Of a DNA stretch of 64,000 bases, positions 36,771 through 39,917 are shown one piece after another. The notes below the pieces were generated by a model. The model saw only the letters and a list, made by a program, of their open reading frames with translations, ran no database searches and was not told the DNA's origin. The translations under genes and the position numbers were made by a program. The DNA comes from an uncultured Planctomycetales bacterium (GTDB lineage Bacteria; Omnitrophota; Gorgyraeia; Gygaellales; Profunditerraquicolaceae), in NCBI GenBank assembly GCA_964427405.1, contig CAYRUB010000008.1, forward strand, positions 31,428 through 95,427, given 5' to 3'. Every line of letters begins with the position of its first letter. The stretch's first letter is position 1.

Positions 36771-39700
36771 TTATTTGCCTTCTTTAACATCACACCTTAA
36801 GCATCTGCTTGCTTCAAAGCGGGCTTGTTTTAGTGATAACCCTAAAGAAACTTCCTTAAAATTATTCCGCCGTTTATTTATTTCCAGCTTTTCGCCATCT
36901 AATTTCTTTGACACCTTTGGTTCTAAGGGAACTTCAGATTTATAAGTAAATTGACGGAATAATTCGGAAAATCTTTCTCTTGAGCTTAACGCCAGGTCAA
37001 TTATCCTGGCAGCTTTCTTACCGTCAGACATTGCCTCAACTGCAGTCGCCGGCCCCATAGCTAAATCGCCGCCGGCATAAACCTTATCCAAGTTGGTTTT
37101 TAAATCAAACCTGCCTGCCTTAACTGTCCCATTCTGGTTAATCAGAATGCCACAACTCTTAATAAATCCTGCGTCTACCTTTTCTCCGATTGCTAGAATT
37201 ACAGTATCGCAAGGAATTTCAAAAACCTCATCAGTAGCTACAGGCCTTCTCCTTCCGGAAAGATCATAATCTCCTAATGTCATCCTGGTTACGATTAAAC
37301 CTTCCAATCTGCCGCGGGAATCCCCCTGTATGGTTTTAGGGCTGGCTAAAAATATAAACTTAACACCTTCAGATTCGGCCCCTTTAATCTCATCTTTATT
37401 TGCCGGCATATCTGCTTTTTCCCGCCGGTAAACAATGGTCACCTCGCTGCCGAACCTCAAGGCTGTGCGTGCGGCATCCACTGCGACATTACCGGCGCCA
37501 ATAACTACTGTCCTTTTACCGATAAGCGGATCCCTGCCGACTGCCACATCCCCCAGAAAAGCAGTGCCTGATAATACTCCTTTTAAACTTTCTCCCGGAA
37601 TACCCAAACCCATATTTTTATACGCCCCGGTTGCCAACAATACCGCATCCGACTCTTTAATCTTTTTATCTAATTCCTGTGCGCTGATTTTTTTGTTGCA
37701 TAAAATCTTTGCCCCCATCTTTTGCACAAAAGCAATTTCTTTTCTTAATACTGCCTTGGGAAGACGATATTCGGGAATACCATAACGCAAAACCCCGCCG
37801 GCTTCAGGATTAGCTTCATACACGCTCACATCATGGCCAAGCCGGCTAAGATAAAATGCCGCGGTTAAACCGCAGGGGCCTGCACCGATAATAGAAATCT
37901 TCTTGCCGGTCTTTGGCAGCCTTTCTTTGGCTAAGCGCTCAATAATCTTTGCATCTTTGCCGCCTTTATATACCTGATCCGCAATATATCTATGAATTTC
38001 GCCTTGCGAAACCGGATAATCAATATCCTCTCTGCGGCAGCGCATCTTACAATGAAAATGACAAATCCTTCCGCTCGAAGACGGAAAAGGATTATCCCGG
38101 ATAACGCAATCAAAGGCTTCGGCCAATTTGCTTTCTTTAAATAATTCCAGGAATCCCGGGATATTCATATGTAATGGGCAACTATTTTCACAAGGAGAAA
38201 CAAAAAGACCCACACATACCCCGCCGTCACAACGCTGCTCTTTGATATGTTCTTCATATTCGTGCTTAAAATATTTAAGAGTAGTCAGCACGGGATTTGG
38301 ACTGGTTTGCCCTAACCCGCAAAGGGCAGTATCTTTAATCACCGTCCCTAAATCTTCTAAACCCTGAATATCGCCTTGACTGGCTTTACCCTTTGTAATA
38401 TTAGTCAAGATATTTAAGCTTTGGGTCAGGCCTTCCCGGCAAGGCGTACATTTACCACAGGATTCGCTGGTGGTAAACTCCGTAAAATAGCGCGCCACAT
38501 CAACCATGCAATTATCATCATCCATTACCACCATTCCACCAGACCCCATGATCGCCCCCAAAGAGGCCAAGGTTTCATAATCAATCGGAGTATTAAATAA
38601 TGAAGCGGGGATACACCCTCCGGAAGGGCCGCCGCTCTGCACAGCCTTAATTTTTTTATTTGTGCCAGTTCCTGAGCCAATATTATAAATAAGTGTCTGT
38701 AAAGAAGCTCCTAAAGGTAACTCCACCAACCCGGTATTCTTGATCTTACCTACCAGGGAAAAAACTTTAGTTCCAGAGCTATTTTGAGTACCGGTCTGCG
38801 TAAACCAATCAGCGCCTTTTACCATAATAACCGGAATGTTACTCCAGGTTTCCACATTATTAATATTAGTAGGTTTATCCAGATATCCTTTTTGCGCAGG
38901 AAACGGCGGACGGGGATGCGGCCTTCCTGATTTACCCTCAAGCGAAGAAATTAATGCTGTTTCTTCTCCGCAGACAAATGCTCCCGCACCTTCTACCAAT
39001 TTAAGGTCAAAAGAAAAACCGCTATTAAATATATTACCGCCTAATAGGCCAAGCTCGCGGGCATCAGAAATTGCCTTTTTTATCCGCTCTACCGCCAAAG
39101 GATATTCTGCGCGTACATAAATAACACCGCTAGAAGCGCCCATCGCATAAGCGCCGATAATCATCCCCTCTAAAAGCATATGCGGGTCGCTCTCGCTTTC
39201 ATTACGGTTCATATACGCACCGGGATCGCCTTCATCGGCATTACAGATAATATATTTCTCCTCAGCATTCTCTTTGCGCATTAATTCCCATTTTATCCCT
39301 GTAGGAAAACCTGCTCCTCCCCTACCTCTTAGTTTTGATTTCTTCACCTCTGCAATTACAGCTTCCGGTTTAAGATCTGTTAAAACATTCAGCAAGGCCT
39401 GGTATCCGCCTACAGCAATATACTCTTCTATATCTTCGGGGTTAATCAAACCGCAATCCCTTAAAACAATTTTTTTCTGCCATTTAAAAAACGGGATTTC
39501 ATCCCAAGCGGGTATCTGTTCAAACCCCTTACCGTAAGAAACATGTCCAGTAAGATGATCCCATGTCTCAATTTTACATAAAGCCCTTTTAGGATTAATA
39601 TTACTGCTGGATATCTCCCTAACTATAGAATCTGCGTCTTTAGGCAAGACGCGGCTTAAAATAACTAACGGTTTGCCGGGCAAAGTAATATTAACTAAGG

Positions 39701-39917
39701 GCTCCTGAGCGCAAAAACCAAAACAACCTACTTTAGTTAAGACCGCCGGTACTTTTCGTTTTGCAAGCGCAACTTTAAAAGCCTGGAATAATTCCCGCGC
39801 ACCATTTCCAATACCACAAGTCCCCATGCCGACGGCGATACGCACGCATTTAGATAATAACTTCGCTGATCCTTTTTCTTTAATCAGTCGTAAGTCTTCG
39901 GCATTCCTAATAATCAT
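36771..39917 (-). CDS. Fusion protein: thioredoxin-like [2Fe-2S] domain + NuoF-like flavoprotein (HydB) + GltD/NfnB-like FAD/NAD(P) oxidoreductase
   Basis: 1048 aa. N-terminus GMGTCGIGNGAREL…GCFGFCAQEPLV; GRGGAGFPTGIKW NuoF motif; 2x[4Fe-4S]; C-terminal half KISIIGAGPCGLTAAFYLSRLGHDVSVYEANPEAGGVLRYGIPEYRLPK, aligning to nfnB (23946-25364). Confidence 0.75.
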   Translation of the reverse strand: MIIRNAEDLRLIKEKGSAKLLSKCVRIAVGMGTCGIGNGARELFQAFKVALAKRKVPAVLTKVGCFGFCAQEPLVNITLPGKPLVILSRVLPKDADSIVREISSSNINPKRALCKIETWDHLTGHVSYGKGFEQIPAWDEIPFFKWQKKIVLRDCGLINPEDIEEYIAVGGYQALLNVLTDLKPEAVIAEVKKSKLRGRGGAGFPTGIKWELMRKENAEEKYIICNADEGDPGAYMNRNESESDPHMLLEGMIIGAYAMGASSGVIYVRAEYPLAVERIKKAISDARELGLLGGNIFNSGFSFDLKLVEGAGAFVCGEETALISSLEGKSGRPHPRPPFPAQKGYLDKPTNINNVETWSNIPVIMVKGADWFTQTGTQNSSGTKVFSLVGKIKNTGLVELPLGASLQTLIYNIGSGTGTNKKIKAVQSGGPSGGCIPASLFNTPIDYETLASLGAIMGSGGMVVMDDDNCMVDVARYFTEFTTSESCGKCTPCREGLTQSLNILTNITKGKASQGDIQGLEDLGTVIKDTALCGLGQTSPNPVLTTLKYFKHEYEEHIKEQRCDGGVCVGLFVSPCENSCPLHMNIPGFLELFKESKLAEAFDCVIRDNPFPSSSGRICHFHCKMRCRREDIDYPVSQGEIHRYIADQVYKGGKDAKIIERLAKERLPKTGKKISIIGAGPCGLTAAFYLSRLGHDVSVYEANPEAGGVLRYGIPEYRLPKAVLRKEIAFVQKMGAKILCNKKISAQELDKKIKESDAVLLATGAYKNMGLGIPGESLKGVLSGTAFLGDVAVGRDPLIGKRTVVIGAGNVAVDAARTALRFGSEVTIVYRREKADMPANKDEIKGAESEGVKFIFLASPKTIQGDSRGRLEGLIVTRMTLGDYDLSGRRRPVATDEVFEIPCDTVILAIGEKVDAGFIKSCGILINQNGTVKAGRFDLKTNLDKVYAGGDLAMGPATAVEAMSDGKKAARIIDLALSSRERFSELFRQFTYKSEVPLEPKVSKKLDGEKLEINKRRNNFKEVSLGLSLKQARFEASRCLRCDVKEGK

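What the first reader, a model, noticed from the sequence alone, without database searches (positions are those of the whole stretch)
36771..39917. NuoF-like flavoprotein fused in frame to a GltD/NfnB-like NADPH oxidoreductase within an [FeFe]-hydrogenase operon
A 1048-aa polypeptide combines a thioredoxin-like 2Fe-2S domain, a NuoF/HydB NADH-FMN module (GRGGAGFPTGIKW) and a complete GltD/NfnB-type FAD/NAD(P) module (GAGPCGLTAAFYL…). It is flanked by a NuoE-like subunit, a HydA-type hydrogenase and Rex. From established knowledge of electron-bifurcating HydABC and Sporomusa-type Nfn (StnABC; NuoE-like, NuoF-like and NfnB-like subunits), this looks like an Stn-like module fused into one chain and wired to a hydrogenase. 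That implies direct coupling of H2 to both NADH and NADPH pools. A canonical NfnAB and a separate HndABCD-like enzyme are encoded within 12 kb.
Basis: partly seen in the sequence, partly recalled or inferred. Interest (0 to 1): 0.65.

Follow-up and report, generated by a model that had tools for sequence, protein, structure and literature searches.

The report
Hydrogenase subunit with NADPH module replacing ferredoxin domain
A widespread but uncharacterised three-subunit iron-iron hydrogenase, in which the part that normally hands electrons to ferredoxin is replaced by an NADPH-binding flavin module, so the enzyme probably links hydrogen gas to both NADH and NADPH.

Summary
An uninterrupted 1048-aa ORF lies on the minus strand at 36771-39917, between a NuoE-like gene and a HydA gene, with Rex upstream. 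An Hnd-like hydrogenase, HydGEF and NfnAB lie downstream.

It is not an artefact. The two halves are contiguous and in frame in 83/83 independent assemblies. NuoE-like is upstream in 68/68 assessable loci and HydA downstream in 64/64. At least 569 species-representative genomes carry the family, including cultured Petrimonas sulfuriphila.

Residues 22-571 form a bifurcating-type HydB/BfuB core (about 60% identical to T. sibiricus NfnB), with the FMN/NAD motifs, the B1 cluster and the Cys3His zinc hinge intact. Directly after the hinge, the ferredoxin-like domain (clusters B3/B4) is absent. In its place is a circularly permuted NfnB-like module of the Stn/Nfn-Bfu type: two [4Fe-4S] clusters, FAD and an NADPH motif. 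One cluster ligand is an invariant His, where NfnB has Glu and StnC has Lys.

Best reading, by inference only: a Bfu-type hydrogenase whose gated low-potential arm ends in NADP(H) instead of, or in addition to, ferredoxin (2 H2 + NAD+ + NADP+ = NADH + NADPH + 2 H+). I rate it a new variant of a known kind; its biochemistry is untested.

The parts
41137..41164 (-). Sigma-70-like promoter (TTGACA, 16 nt, TATATT, TG-extended) upstream of rex
   Evidence: Best promoter match in 30000-42600, 11 of 12 positions; sequence read. This is a consensus match only.
41109..41126 (.). Rex-operator-like half-palindrome TTGTGAAAAATAGAACAA between the -10 element and the rex ATG
   Evidence: Three mismatches to TTGTGAAnnnnTTCACAA. 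The same box is conserved upstream of rex in related Omnitrophota loci L005, L006 and L011, and better boxes (1-2 mismatches) occur in L009 and L008. The window-wide count is not above chance (6 against 3.7 expected).
40481..41107 (-). rex, redox-sensing (NADH/NAD+) transcriptional repressor, 208 aa
   Evidence: NCBIfam NF003996 Rex 242.8 bits (cut-off 138); Pfam Put_DNA-bind_N plus CoA_binding. Present upstream of the cassette in 15 of 66 assessable loci.
39914..40462 (-). NuoE-like subunit (HydC/BfuC), 182 aa, with the predicted C1 [2Fe-2S] site
   Evidence: Pfam 2Fe-2S_thioredx 1e-38. CRGTAC...CFGQC Cys pattern, 36% identical to the Hnd-type paralogue. An 18-nt gap with an RBS follows rex, and there is an ATGA overlap with the fusion. 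Immediately upstream of the fusion in 68 of 68 assessable loci.
39528..39854 (-). Fusion residues ~22-130: N-terminal thioredoxin-like domain (B5 site)
   Evidence: Aligns to the N-terminal domain of BfuB in 9n5u_B, 9bov_B and 7q4v_B. C34, C65, C69 and C114 are invariant in the family. The three-Cys pattern matches the Zn-type B5 site of Tsi and Csac NfnB.
38208..39479 (-). Fusion residues 147-570: NuoF/HydB core with the FMN + NAD(H) site, B1 [4Fe-4S] and the Cys3His zinc hinge (B2)
   Evidence: Pfam Complex1_51K and NADH_4Fe-4S. 57% identical to the canonical paralogue and about 60% identical to Tsi NfnB. GRGGAGFP, NADEGDPG, C487/C490/C493/C533 and C470/H557/C563/C568 are invariant.
36774..38204 (-). 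Fusion residues 572-1048: circularly permuted NfnB-like module with two [4Fe-4S], FAD and an NADP(H) site
   Evidence: 368 bits to Csac NfnA residues 102-567, and hits to Tsi NfnA, StnC and NfnI-L. The C-terminal tail aligns to the N-terminus of NfnL. C576/C580/C619/C623/C627/H642/C1039/C1042, GxGxxG 678-683, GxGxxA 807-812 and Y830-R831-R832 are invariant.
34992..36770 (-). HydA, [FeFe]-hydrogenase catalytic subunit (BfuA), 592 aa; its ATG abuts the fusion's TAA
   Evidence: Pfam Fer2_4, NADH-G_4Fe-4S_3, 2x Fer4, Fe_hyd_lg_C (7e-93) and Fe_hyd_SSU. NCBIfam FeFe_hydrog_A6 865 bits. H-domain closest to T. kivui and A. woodii HydA1. Immediately downstream in 64 of 64 assessable loci. Junction sequence read.
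30557..34898 (-). Context: separate HndABCD-like bifurcating-type hydrogenase (NuoE 157 aa, [2Fe-2S] protein 115 aa, NuoF with a 2x[4Fe-4S] C-terminal domain 580 aa, HydA 583 aa)
   Evidence: Pfam and NCBIfam. This paralogue keeps the ferredoxin-like C-terminal domain that the fusion lacks.
26318..30039 (-). Context: H-cluster maturases HydG, HydE, HydF
   Evidence: Pfam Radical_SAM + BATS, Radical_SAM, and HydF_dimer/HydF_tetramer.
23946..26199 (-). Context: canonical NfnA (276 aa) and NfnB (Fer4_20 + Pyr_redox_2)
   Evidence: Pfam DHODB_Fe-S_bind + NAD_binding_1, and full-length Fer4_20 (2-111 of 113) + Pyr_redox_2.

Best explanation
The ORF encodes the flavoprotein subunit of a three-subunit cytoplasmic [FeFe]-hydrogenase, made up of a NuoE-like HydC, this HydB variant and HydA. 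The complex is a structural variant of the electron-bifurcating HydABC/Bfu family. The HydB part keeps everything that forms the bifurcating core in solved Bfu enzymes: the FMN/NAD(H) site, cluster B1, the Cys3His zinc hinge and the N-terminal domain, together with a HydC that carries cluster C1. The ferredoxin-like C-terminal domain (clusters B3/B4) is missing. In HydABC and NfnABC that domain receives the low-potential electrons from the swinging C1 cluster and passes them to ferredoxin. In its place, starting 8 residues after the last zinc ligand, is a permuted NfnB-like module with two [4Fe-4S] clusters, FAD and an NADPH-type Rossmann motif. Proposed path (inferred): H2 is oxidised at the H-cluster and electrons pass along the HydA clusters to B1/FMN. 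One pair leaves as hydride to NAD+ at the FMN. The other leaves through C1, the two module clusters and FAD to NADP+. Overall: 2 H2 + NAD+ + NADP+ = NADH + NADPH + 2 H+, reversible. In the H2-forming direction, NADPH (about -380 mV in vivo) would replace reduced ferredoxin as the driver for re-oxidising NADH (about -280 mV). By my Nernst calculation from those values, this raises the H2 ceiling for NADH disposal from about 3 Pa to about 150 Pa without ferredoxin. In this lineage the operon starts with rex and a Rex-like operator, which fits a redox-valve role. Shown: the architecture, the conserved ligands and motifs, the conserved three-gene cassette and its wide distribution. Inferred: cofactor occupancy, NADP(H) specificity, the electron path, energetic coupling and direction.
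For: Domain architecture. Residues 22-571 align to BfuB of solved bifurcating enzymes up to but not including their ferredoxin-like domain, e.g. 9n5u_B positions 2-537 of 602, 653 bits. Residues 574-1043 align to the NfnB-like module of Csac NfnA, Tsi NfnA and StnC. The in-window paralogue is 57% identical up to the hinge and then continues into CxxCxxCxxxCP, while the fusion continues into CENSCP of the module. Every ligand and motif is invariant across 22 family members from several phyla, and the hinge and module ligands hold even at 33% identity. The cassette NuoE-like / fusion / HydA is strictly conserved at 83/83, 68/68 and 64/64, and also in a 46%-identical clade. The HydA H-domain is closest to bifurcating T. 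kivui and A. woodii HydA1. From the literature: the low-potential path is C1 to B3 to B4 to Fd, and Fd binds at the BfuB ferredoxin-like domain (PMC12018979, PMC11829005); a HydB C-terminal deletion complex supported the Fd-branch model (PMC10021017); His in the B2 site is typical of Bfu B subunits and absent from non-Bfu homologues; non-bifurcating homologues lack B2-B5 (PMC9304861). Rex, promoter and operator.
Against: No biochemical data exist for any family member. I found none in 7 literature searches. The single-chain AlphaFold model has low confidence exactly at the hinge and cluster region (pLDDT below 50 for 532-586; pTM 0.55), so I could not verify that the module clusters sit where B3/B4 sit. 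NAD+/NADH and NADP+/NADPH share the same standard potential, so an energetic reason to bifurcate between them exists only through their in vivo ratios. In Stn/NfnABC the homologous module is an electron INPUT at mid potential, not a low-potential output. The proximal cluster ligand is His rather than the Glu associated with a very low potential in NfnB, which may not suit a low-potential arm. Nucleotide specificity at the FMN site cannot be read from sequence; T. kivui HydB uses NADP at that site. Rex accompanies the cassette in only 15 of 66 loci.
Confidence: 0.4

Rival explanations
1. Four-substrate redox hub. Ferredoxin is still the low-potential partner and docks at the module's two [4Fe-4S] clusters, as it does on NfnL/NfnB. 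FAD/NADP(H) is an additional port. The complex would combine HydABC activity (H2 with NAD and Fd) and Nfn-like activity (NADPH with NAD and Fd).
For: In canonical NfnSL the same two clusters lead to ferredoxin (PMC10482914). Greening et al. predicted 'likely ferredoxin' at the GltA domain of an archaeal HydB (PMC11216029). [quoted passage not shown] CENSCP aligns onto the ferredoxin-motif CxxxCP.
Against: The module is of the Stn/Nfn-BfuA type (permuted, 368 bits against 317 bits to NfnL), and no Fd binding is reported for that type. A fully conserved FAD/NADPH site would be unnecessary for a pure ferredoxin dock. The genome already encodes a canonical Hnd-type hydrogenase and NfnAB, so a hub would be redundant.
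Confidence: 0.25
2. Non-bifurcating NAD(P)H-linked hydrogenase. The FMN site and the FAD site are two independent entry and exit points wired to the H-cluster. The enzyme would simply equilibrate H2 with NADH and with NADPH, with no obligatory coupling. It could also act as an H2-independent NADH/NADPH transhydrogenase.
For: Loss of B3/B4 is a hallmark of non-bifurcating HydB homologues (PMC9304861; PMC7311640). The two pyridine nucleotides have equal standard potentials. The Stn-type module is a plain, non-bifurcating NADPH:Fe-S oxidoreductase.
Against: Non-bifurcating homologues lack B2-B5 altogether. This family keeps the Cys3His hinge, including the Bfu-typical His, and the N-terminal B5 domain, both invariant. 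The module is tethered only 8 residues after the hinge. That places it at the arm served by the mobile C1 cluster, not on the HydA chain.
Confidence: 0.22
3. The FAD module acts on a substrate other than NADP(H). Examples are polysulfide or sulfur, Fe(III) chelates or a disulfide, as once proposed for the homologues SudA, NsoC and SfrB. Alternatively the module is only a regulatory NADPH sensor.
For: Homologues of this module were first described with such activities (PMC7483475). Distant fusion clades with degenerate FMN sites sit beside two-component regulators rather than hydrogenases.
Against: The NADPH-type second Rossmann motif GxGxxA with the Y-R-R that follows is invariant and matches NfnL, NfnA and StnC. 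SudA is now regarded as NfnI. No sulfur- or iron-related genes are conserved next to the cassette.
Confidence: 0.06
4. Assembly or sequencing artefact: two adjacent genes (hydB and an nfnB/gltD-like gene) merged by a frameshift error or a chimeric contig.
For: None found.
Against: The same uninterrupted fusion occurs in 83 of 83 independent assemblies from several phyla, including an isolate genome. More than 120 protein clusters are full length. The junction residues are invariant.
Confidence: 0.01

Closest known systems
Electron-bifurcating [FeFe]-hydrogenase HydABC / FeFe-Bfu (T. maritima, A. woodii, T. kivui; PDB 7p5h, 8a5e, 8a6t) and tetrameric Hnd
   Same: Same three subunits and gene order. 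HydA has the same cluster domains. The HydB core is 50-60% identical, with FMN/NAD motifs, B1, the Cys3His zinc hinge and the N-terminal domain. HydC carries the C1 site.
   Different: The C-terminal ferredoxin-like domain of HydB (B3/B4, the ferredoxin-reducing end) is absent. A roughly 475-aa FAD/NADPH module with its own two [4Fe-4S] clusters takes its place.
Stn / NfnABC (Nfn-Bfu) transhydrogenase (S. ovata 8oh5; C. saccharolyticus 9bov; T. sibiricus 9n5u)
   Same: These are the best structural relatives of both halves. They use the same permuted NfnB-like module, whose CxxC pair comes after the FAD/NADPH domains. They also share the same NuoE-like and NuoF-like core, and the three-Cys B5 pattern seen in Tsi and Csac NfnB.
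   Different: There the module is inserted in the NuoG-like A subunit between its [2Fe-2S] and His-cluster domains, and it injects NADPH electrons at mid potential. The B subunit keeps B3/B4 and reduces ferredoxin, and there is no H-cluster. Here the module is on the B subunit in place of B3/B4, the A subunit is a true HydA, and the proximal-cluster ligand is His instead of Lys170 (PMC10482914, PMC11829005).
Canonical NfnAB / NfnSL (T. maritima, P. furiosus 5jca)
   Same: The FAD/NADPH domain and the two [4Fe-4S] clusters are homologous (317 bits).
   Different: Canonical NfnB has the CxxC pair at its N-terminus, a Glu ligand on the proximal cluster, a bifurcating FAD and an NfnA partner. The window encodes such a pair separately at 23946-26199.
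HydB with a 'glutamate synthase (GltA) domain' in archaeal group F hybrid [FeFe]/[NiFe] hydrogenase gene clusters (Greening et al., Cell 2024, PMC11216029)
   Same: This is the only published mention I found of a HydB (NuoF-like) subunit fused to a GltD/GltA-like domain in a hydrogenase complex.
   Different: It is an archaeal five-subunit hybrid complex with HydD, HyhL and a HydA-HyhS fusion. It was modelled only, and the authors suggested ferredoxin rather than NADP(H) at that domain. I could not obtain the sequence for a direct comparison.
HydDB [FeFe] group A2 'glutamate synthase-linked' hydrogenases
   Same: A HydA genetically linked to a GltD-like NAD(P)H flavoprotein. Its function is undetermined (PMC5037454).
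   Different: The A2 rule requires a GltD-type neighbour WITHOUT NuoF. This partner has both, so the rule would sort it with A3 if at all, and the fusion lies upstream of hydA rather than downstream.

Membership tests
Bfu family (BfuABC; Schut et al. 2022) | BfuB with an FMN/NAD(H) site and the B1 [4Fe-4S] cluster | tested here: met
   Complex1_51K and NADH_4Fe-4S. GRGGAGFP, NADEGDPG and C487/C490/C493/C533 are invariant.
Bfu family (BfuABC; Schut et al. 2022) | B2 site: Cys3His hinge between the core and the C-terminal domain (His absent from non-Bfu homologues) | tested here: met
   C470, H557, C563 and C568 align to Tsi C437, H524, C529 and C534. They are invariant even at 33% identity.
Bfu family (BfuABC; Schut et al. 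2022) | [quoted passage not shown] | tested here: met
   The domain aligns to the BfuB N-terminal domains. C34, C65 and C69 plus C114 are invariant. The metal, Zn or [2Fe-2S], cannot be decided from sequence.
Bfu family (BfuABC; Schut et al. 2022) | B3/B4: C-terminal ferredoxin-like domain with 2x CX2CX2CX3CP (the ferredoxin-reducing end) | tested here: not met
   No Fer4-type domain is found. Alignments to all solved BfuB end before that domain. The paralogue has it and the fusion does not.
Bfu family (BfuABC; Schut et al. 2022) | BfuC (NuoE-like) with the C1 [2Fe-2S] cluster, and BfuA carrying the catalytic site | tested here: met
   2Fe-2S_thioredx 1e-38 with four Cys. HydA has the full cluster set and H-domain. 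Adjacency is 68/68 and 64/64.
Bfu family (BfuABC; Schut et al. 2022) | Tightly coupled reaction using NAD(H), ferredoxin and a third substrate | not testable with these tools
   Requires enzyme assays.
Stn / NfnABC (Nfn-Bfu) transhydrogenase | Permuted NfnB-like FAD/NADPH module with two [4Fe-4S] clusters | tested here: met
   368 bits to Csac NfnA 102-567. The tail aligns to the NfnL N-terminus. Ligands are invariant.
Stn / NfnABC (Nfn-Bfu) transhydrogenase | Module inserted in the NuoG-like A/C subunit, feeding the A-cluster chain | tested here: not met
   The module is C-terminal on the NuoF-like subunit. The A subunit here is HydA and has no such insertion.
Stn / NfnABC (Nfn-Bfu) transhydrogenase | Lys ligand (K170) on the FAD-proximal cluster | tested here: not met
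   The aligned residue is His642, invariant in this clade. A sister clade in the same cassette has Lys.
Stn / NfnABC (Nfn-Bfu) transhydrogenase | No hydrogenase active site; substrates are NADPH, NAD+ and Fd only | tested here: not met
   The adjacent A subunit has a complete H-cluster domain with the L1, L2 and L3 motifs.
Canonical NfnAB/NfnSL | NfnB with an N-terminal CxxC, a Glu-ligated proximal cluster, and an NfnA partner subunit | tested here: not met
   Permuted order and His ligand. No NfnA is in the cassette; the NfnA at 25369-26199 is paired with its own NfnB.
Non-bifurcating NADH-dependent [FeFe]-hydrogenase (S. wolfei Hyd1ABC / S. aciditrophicus HydAB type) | Beta subunit lacking all of B2-B5 | tested here: not met
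   The B2 hinge and B5 domain are retained and invariant; only B3/B4 are missing (criterion from PMC9304861).
HydDB [FeFe] group A2 (glutamate synthase-linked) | GltD/GltA-type protein, without NuoF, encoded immediately downstream of hydA | tested here: not met
   The partner contains NuoF domains and lies upstream of hydA (rule quoted).

The most novel reading that the evidence does not exclude
[quoted passage not shown] The enzyme would then obligately couple H2 to the NAD and NADP pools together (2 H2 + NAD+ + NADP+ = NADH + NADPH + 2 H+). That would be a reaction type not described for any hydrogenase, and it would show that the output end of the Bfu core is as modular as its input end. 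The enzyme would operate in at least 569 species of Omnitrophota, Bacteroidales, Spirochaetota, Margulisiibacteriota and others.
Probability: 0.35. Interest if true: 0.8.

Novelty: new variant of a known kind. Interest (0 to 1): 0.6.

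Why it matters
Work on Bfu-type bifurcating enzymes has stressed that the input subunit (BfuA) is modular while the BfuBC core cofactors, including the ferredoxin-reducing B3/B4 domain, are conserved in all members. This family breaks that rule in a regular, strongly conserved way, and it is common in anaerobic digesters, sediments and groundwater lineages.

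If NADP(H) replaces ferredoxin on the gated arm, it would be a new hydrogenase reaction. It would also give a new way for fermenters to dispose of NADH as H2, or to make NADPH from H2, without ferredoxin.

It would also be a natural experiment on the still unresolved Bfu mechanism, because it changes what the low-potential arm needs. Even if the enzyme proves non-bifurcating, annotation pipelines currently name it 'FAD-dependent oxidoreductase' or 'NuoF', and hydrogenase classifiers have no category for it.

A cultured carrier, P. sulfuriphila DSM 16547, makes the question directly testable.

Tried and rejected
1. Frameshift or chimera artefact: rejected. The halves are contiguous and in frame in 83/83 loci.

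2. 'TSCSPGW instead of TSCCPxW in the partner HydA means an unusual or inactive H-cluster': rejected. The motif is conserved in all five partner HydAs examined, but the active, structurally solved A. woodii HydA1 has the identical motif.

3. Single-chain AlphaFold2 model, intended to test whether the module clusters occupy the B3/B4 position: inconclusive. Mean pLDDT was 72.8 and pTM 0.55, with the hinge and cluster region below 50. No coordinates or cofactors were available, so I did not use the model or run fold searches on it.

4. Window-wide Rex-box scan: not above chance (6 against 3.7 expected). Only the box directly upstream of rex, and its conservation in related loci, is retained, as weak evidence.

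5. Simple origin by deleting the segment between nfnB and nfnA of an NfnABC operon: considered because the alignment boundaries are seamless (B to 537, A from 102-103). Rejected as sufficient, because the downstream gene is a complete HydA with its own [2Fe-2S] domain and the module ends with a stop codon. Domain transplantation is needed.

6. HydDB group A2 assignment: rejected by the rule itself.

7. Sequence of the archaeal HydB-GltA fusion for direct comparison: the supplement is not held.

8. NAD versus NADP specificity at the FMN site: no usable sequence determinant found in PMC10021017.

9. Literature: 7 searches found no description or assay of this bacterial cassette. Schut et al. 2022 selected BfuB sequences by an InterPro architecture that requires the ferredoxin-type domain, and they excluded metagenomes, so the family fell outside their survey. 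The Petrimonas mucosa genome paper lists only an Hnd and a group C1 hydrogenase.

10. NCBIfam has no model that reaches its cut-off for the fusion. The best are nuoF_fam at 470 against 559 and PRK12771 at 445 against 516.

Full report
OBSERVATION. The finding's coordinates delimit exactly one ORF, but on the minus strand: 36771..39917, ATG start, 1048 aa, no internal stop. Pfam finds Complex1_51K (191-362, 1e-44), NADH_4Fe-4S (473-557, 7e-33), Fer4_20 (567-651, matching profile positions 23-110 only) and Pyr_redox_2 (673-966, 4e-36).

Reading the minus strand, the neighbourhood is as follows:
- a CitMHS transporter (41188-42459)
- Rex (40481-41107)
- a NuoE-like protein (39914-40462)
- the fusion
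- HydA (34992-36770)
- an Hnd-like set: NuoE 34425-34898, a small [2Fe-2S] protein 34071-34418, NuoF with a 2x[4Fe-4S] tail 32311-34053, and a second HydA 30557-32308
- HydG, HydE and HydF (26318-30039)
- NfnA and NfnB (23946-26199)
- a glutamate dehydrogenase

The operon is compact. The best sigma-70-like promoter of the region lies at 41164-41137. A Rex-like box lies at 41109-41126. There are 18 nt with an RBS between rex and the NuoE-like gene, an ATGA overlap into the fusion, and the fusion's TAA is directly followed by the hydA ATG.

NOT AN ARTEFACT, AND NOT RARE. A search of 5.8 billion proteins returned more than 120 clusters of full-length relatives. They are 1043-1057 aa, 60-98% identical and share the same Pfam set. 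They come from Omnitrophota (closest, so the window is almost certainly from an uncultured Omnitrophota bacterium), Margulisiibacteriota, Bacteroidales and 'Deltaproteobacteria' MAGs.

I scanned one genome per GTDB species with two family-specific junction motifs (CPLH[MI]NIP and GRIC[HY][FH]HC). They include Paludibacter, Proteiniphilum, Microbacter, Treponemataceae, Rectinemataceae, Elusimicrobia and the cultured Petrimonas sulfuriphila DSM 16547. The P. sulfuriphila locus has ORFs of 170, 1044 and 585 aa.

A local tblastn survey of 83 loci gave these counts:
- NuoF-like and NfnB-like halves contiguous and in the same frame: 83/83
- NuoE-like gene immediately upstream: 68/68 assessable
- HydA immediately downstream: 64/64 assessable
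- Rex upstream: 15/66
- NfnA nearby: 7 loci

Individual loci from three other phyla show the same cassette. In the exhaustive 50%-identity library, at least 12 further representatives are full-length fusions at only 33-56% identity.

ANATOMY OF THE N-TERMINAL HALF. Residues 22-571 align end to end with the B subunits of every structurally solved Bfu-type bifurcating enzyme:
- T. sibiricus NfnB, 9n5u_B: 653 bits, about 60% identity
- A. mobile NiFe-HydB: 640 bits
- C. saccharolyticus NfnB: 618 bits
- A. woodii HydB: 600 bits
- S. ovata StnB: 590 bits
- T. kivui HydB: 572 bits
- T. maritima HydB: 547 bits

Each alignment stops at about position 527-541 of proteins that are 584-630 aa long, just before their ferredoxin-like C-terminal domain.

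According to the 2025 cryo-EM papers, the bifurcation site is a 'flavobicluster' of B1, FMN and C1. A Cys3His zinc site (B2) forms the hinge to the C-terminal domain, and its His is typical of Bfu B subunits. The low-potential path runs C1 to B3 to B4 to ferredoxin, and ferredoxin binds at the B-subunit ferredoxin-like domain (PMC11829005, PMC12018979). A HydB C-terminal deletion complex supported the Fd-branch model of that path (PMC10021017).

In the window protein the following are all present and invariant in 22 family members:
- the FMN loop and NADEGDPG motif
- the B1 cysteines C487, C490, C493 and C533
- all four B2 ligands, C470, H557, C563 and C568

The hinge is kept even in 33%-identical fusions. 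[quoted passage not shown] An extra invariant C114 leaves the metal undecided.

The in-window paralogue (HndC-like, 580 aa) is 57% identical from residue 147 through the hinge. It then continues into CxxCxxCxxxCP. The fusion instead continues, 8 residues after the last zinc ligand, into the module's CENSCP.

ANATOMY OF THE C-TERMINAL HALF. Residues 574-1043 match the NfnB-like module of the large subunit of Nfn-Bfu/Stn enzymes best: Csac NfnA residues 102-567 at 368 bits, Tsi NfnA 103-503, and StnC 102-568. The match to canonical NfnL is weaker (5jca_L, 317 bits).

The last 35 residues (…NNFKEVSLGLSLKQARFEASRCLRCDVK) align to the N-terminus of canonical NfnL, residues 14-48. The CxxC pair that opens the GltD/NfnB Fe-S domain therefore comes last here, exactly as in NfnA and StnC. 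This explains why Pfam Fer4_20 matches only from position 23. The permutation brings the two ends of the module together, which makes it an insertable cassette.

Seven Cys plus one His (C576, C580, C619, C623, C627, H642, C1039, C1042) are invariant, enough for two [4Fe-4S] clusters. Also invariant are the FAD GxGxxG motif (678-683) and the NADPH-type GxGxxA (807-812) with Y830-R831-R832.

The non-Cys ligand of the FAD-proximal cluster is diagnostic in the literature. It is Glu in bifurcating NfnB and Lys170 in non-bifurcating StnC/NfnA (PMC10482914, PMC11829005). Here the aligned residue is His642. Across the wider superfamily this position varies by clade:
- His in this clade
- Lys in a 46%-identical clade that sits in the same NuoE / fusion / HydA cassette
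- Glu or Gly in distant clades whose FMN motifs are degenerate; one of these lies next to a response regulator and histidine kinase rather than a hydrogenase

PARTNERS. The NuoE-like protein has the four Cys of the C1 site and is 36% identical to the Hnd-type paralogue, with an 11-residue insertion. The partner HydA has the [2Fe-2S], His-ligated [4Fe-4S] and 2x[4Fe-4S] domains plus a complete H-domain. It is 48% identical to the second HydA, and its H-domain is closest to the bifurcating T. kivui and A. woodii HydA1.

Its L1 motif reads TSCSPGW instead of TSCCPxW, in all five partner HydAs I checked. I suspected an anomaly, but A. woodii HydA1, an active enzyme, has the identical motif. I draw no conclusion from it.

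HOW IT MOST LIKELY WORKS. Shown: a strictly conserved three-gene cassette encodes HydA, a HydC, and a HydB whose bifurcating-type core is intact. Its ferredoxin-reducing domain has been replaced, at the hinge, by an FAD/NADPH module carrying two Fe-S clusters.

Inferred: electrons from H2 reach B1/FMN through HydA, as in HydABC. NAD(H) reacts at the FMN. The arm served by the mobile C1 cluster now leads through the module clusters to FAD and NADP(H). The net reaction would be 2 H2 + NAD+ + NADP+ = NADH + NADPH + 2 H+.

The energetics below are my own calculation. I used the in vivo potentials quoted by Schut et al. (NADH about -280 mV, NADPH about -380 mV, H2 -414 mV at 1 bar, Fd about -500 mV) and the Nernst slope of 29.6 mV per decade:
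- NADH alone can sustain about 3 Pa H2
- NADH plus NADPH, about 150 Pa
- NADH plus reduced ferredoxin, about 15 kPa

An NADH/NADPH-confurcating hydrogenase would thus be a ferredoxin-independent redox valve of intermediate strength. Run in reverse, it would be a route from H2 to NADPH.

Rex, with an operator-like box conserved in related Omnitrophota loci, fits the valve role in this lineage. However, Rex is absent from most other carriers.

I give this explanation 0.40. The rivals are:
- ferredoxin still docks on the module clusters, giving a four-substrate hub (0.25)
- two independent nucleotide ports without coupling (0.22)
- a non-NADP substrate or a sensor role (0.06)
- artefact (0.01)

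None of these can be separated by sequence. My single-chain AlphaFold model was unreliable exactly at the hinge and clusters.

COMPARISON WITH WHAT IS KNOWN. The enzyme works most like HydABC/FeFe-Bfu, and it borrows its extra module from Stn/NfnABC. It fails one defining feature of the Bfu family as defined by Schut et al., namely B3/B4. It fails three defining features of Stn/NfnABC: module location, the Lys ligand and the absence of an H-cluster. It is not canonical NfnAB, not the S. wolfei-type non-bifurcating enzyme (it keeps B2 and B5), and not HydDB group A2.

In Stn the module is the mid-potential input on the A subunit. Here it sits at the output end of the B subunit.

I found no description or assay of this bacterial cassette in seven full-text searches. 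Schut et al. retrieved BfuB sequences with an InterPro architecture that requires the ferredoxin-type domain, and they excluded metagenomes, so this family could not appear in their survey. [quoted passage not shown] Databases label the protein 'FAD-dependent oxidoreductase' or 'NuoF', and no NCBIfam model reaches its cut-off.

VERDICT. The gene is a member of a large, conserved, uncharacterised clade that is best described as a new variant of the Bfu-type [FeFe]-hydrogenases. It is not categorically new, because every part is known. It is not ordinary either, because it replaces the one part of the Bfu core that defines the ferredoxin branch. I score interest at 0.6. The hypothesis is specific, a cultured carrier exists, and the result would bear on the open Bfu mechanism. 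All functional statements remain inference.

Noticed in passing
window 34992-36770 (minus); also L001 11168-12940, L003 11150-12925, L004 11149-12924, L076 7530-9287: The HydA partnered with the fusion has H-cluster motif L1 = TSCSPGW instead of the usual TSCCPxW, in all five loci from four phyla. The second HydA in the window (30557-32308) has TSCCPSW. A. woodii HydA1 (PDB 7q4v_A), an active bifurcating enzyme, has the identical ITSCSPGWIKF, so this is a natural variant and not a defect.
   Followed up: yes
P0137/L086 312-3482; also P0140, P0151, P0166, P0211: Distant NuoF-NfnB-like fusions (33-36% identity) keep the zinc hinge and the module's Fe-S, FAD and NADPH motifs. They have degenerate FMN-loop and NADEGDPG motifs and a Glu or Gly at the proximal-cluster ligand position. 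One lies next to a response regulator and a histidine kinase, with no hydrogenase. They may be a different, possibly regulatory or NADPH-only, use of the same scaffold.
   Followed up: partly
L001 13012-16484 (Bacteroidales contig): Directly next to the fusion cassette and divergently transcribed is a second hydrogenase set: NuoE (162 aa), a short NuoF of 394 aa with no extra cluster domains (the pattern of non-bifurcating HydB) and a HydA of 596 aa. Carriers of the fusion often seem to hold a second, differently wired [FeFe]-hydrogenase (also in the window and in L003).
   Followed up: no
window 39914-40462 (minus): The NuoE-like partner of the fusion is 25 aa longer than the Hnd-type NuoE paralogue. 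It has an N-terminal extension and an 11-residue insertion (…EDDFSQDGKSFL…) in the thioredoxin-like domain that carries C1, the mobile domain in Bfu enzymes.
   Followed up: no
window 39576-39578 (Cys114 of the fusion): A fourth cysteine (C114, in ALCKIETW) is invariant in the 22 close family members but is absent from Tsi and Csac NfnB and from the 56%-identical representative P0121 (Phe). It may complete a Cys4 metal site in the N-terminal domain.
   Followed up: partly
window 43230-48157 (minus): Upstream of the transporter lies a trehalose-related cluster: Glyco_transf_20 (745 aa), trehalose phosphatase, a DUF5752 protein (E 6e-67) and a TreT-like GT1 glycosyltransferase. The DUF5752 gene embedded in it has no known function.
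   Followed up: no
window 23946-25484 and 25369-26199 (minus): The longest ORF for NfnB starts at a GTG that overlaps nfnA by 115 nt, and the Fer4_20 match begins only at residue 57. The true start is probably an internal codon near the end of nfnA.
   Followed up: no
L004 5164-7399: In a 'Deltaproteobacteria' MAG the canonical nfnA and nfnB genes lie immediately upstream of the NuoE / fusion / HydA cassette on the same strand. NfnA is within the fetched flanks in 7 of 83 loci, which hints at a functional link between the two NADPH-handling systems.
   Followed up: partly
window 30000-42600: Terminator-like hairpins are about twice as frequent as in shuffled sequence (26 against 13.4 +/- 3.7). 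Nearly all lie inside coding regions, and none marks the hydA/hnd boundary. A TG-extended promoter-like site (34980-34953) sits in the 93-nt gap before the Hnd-like genes.
   Followed up: no
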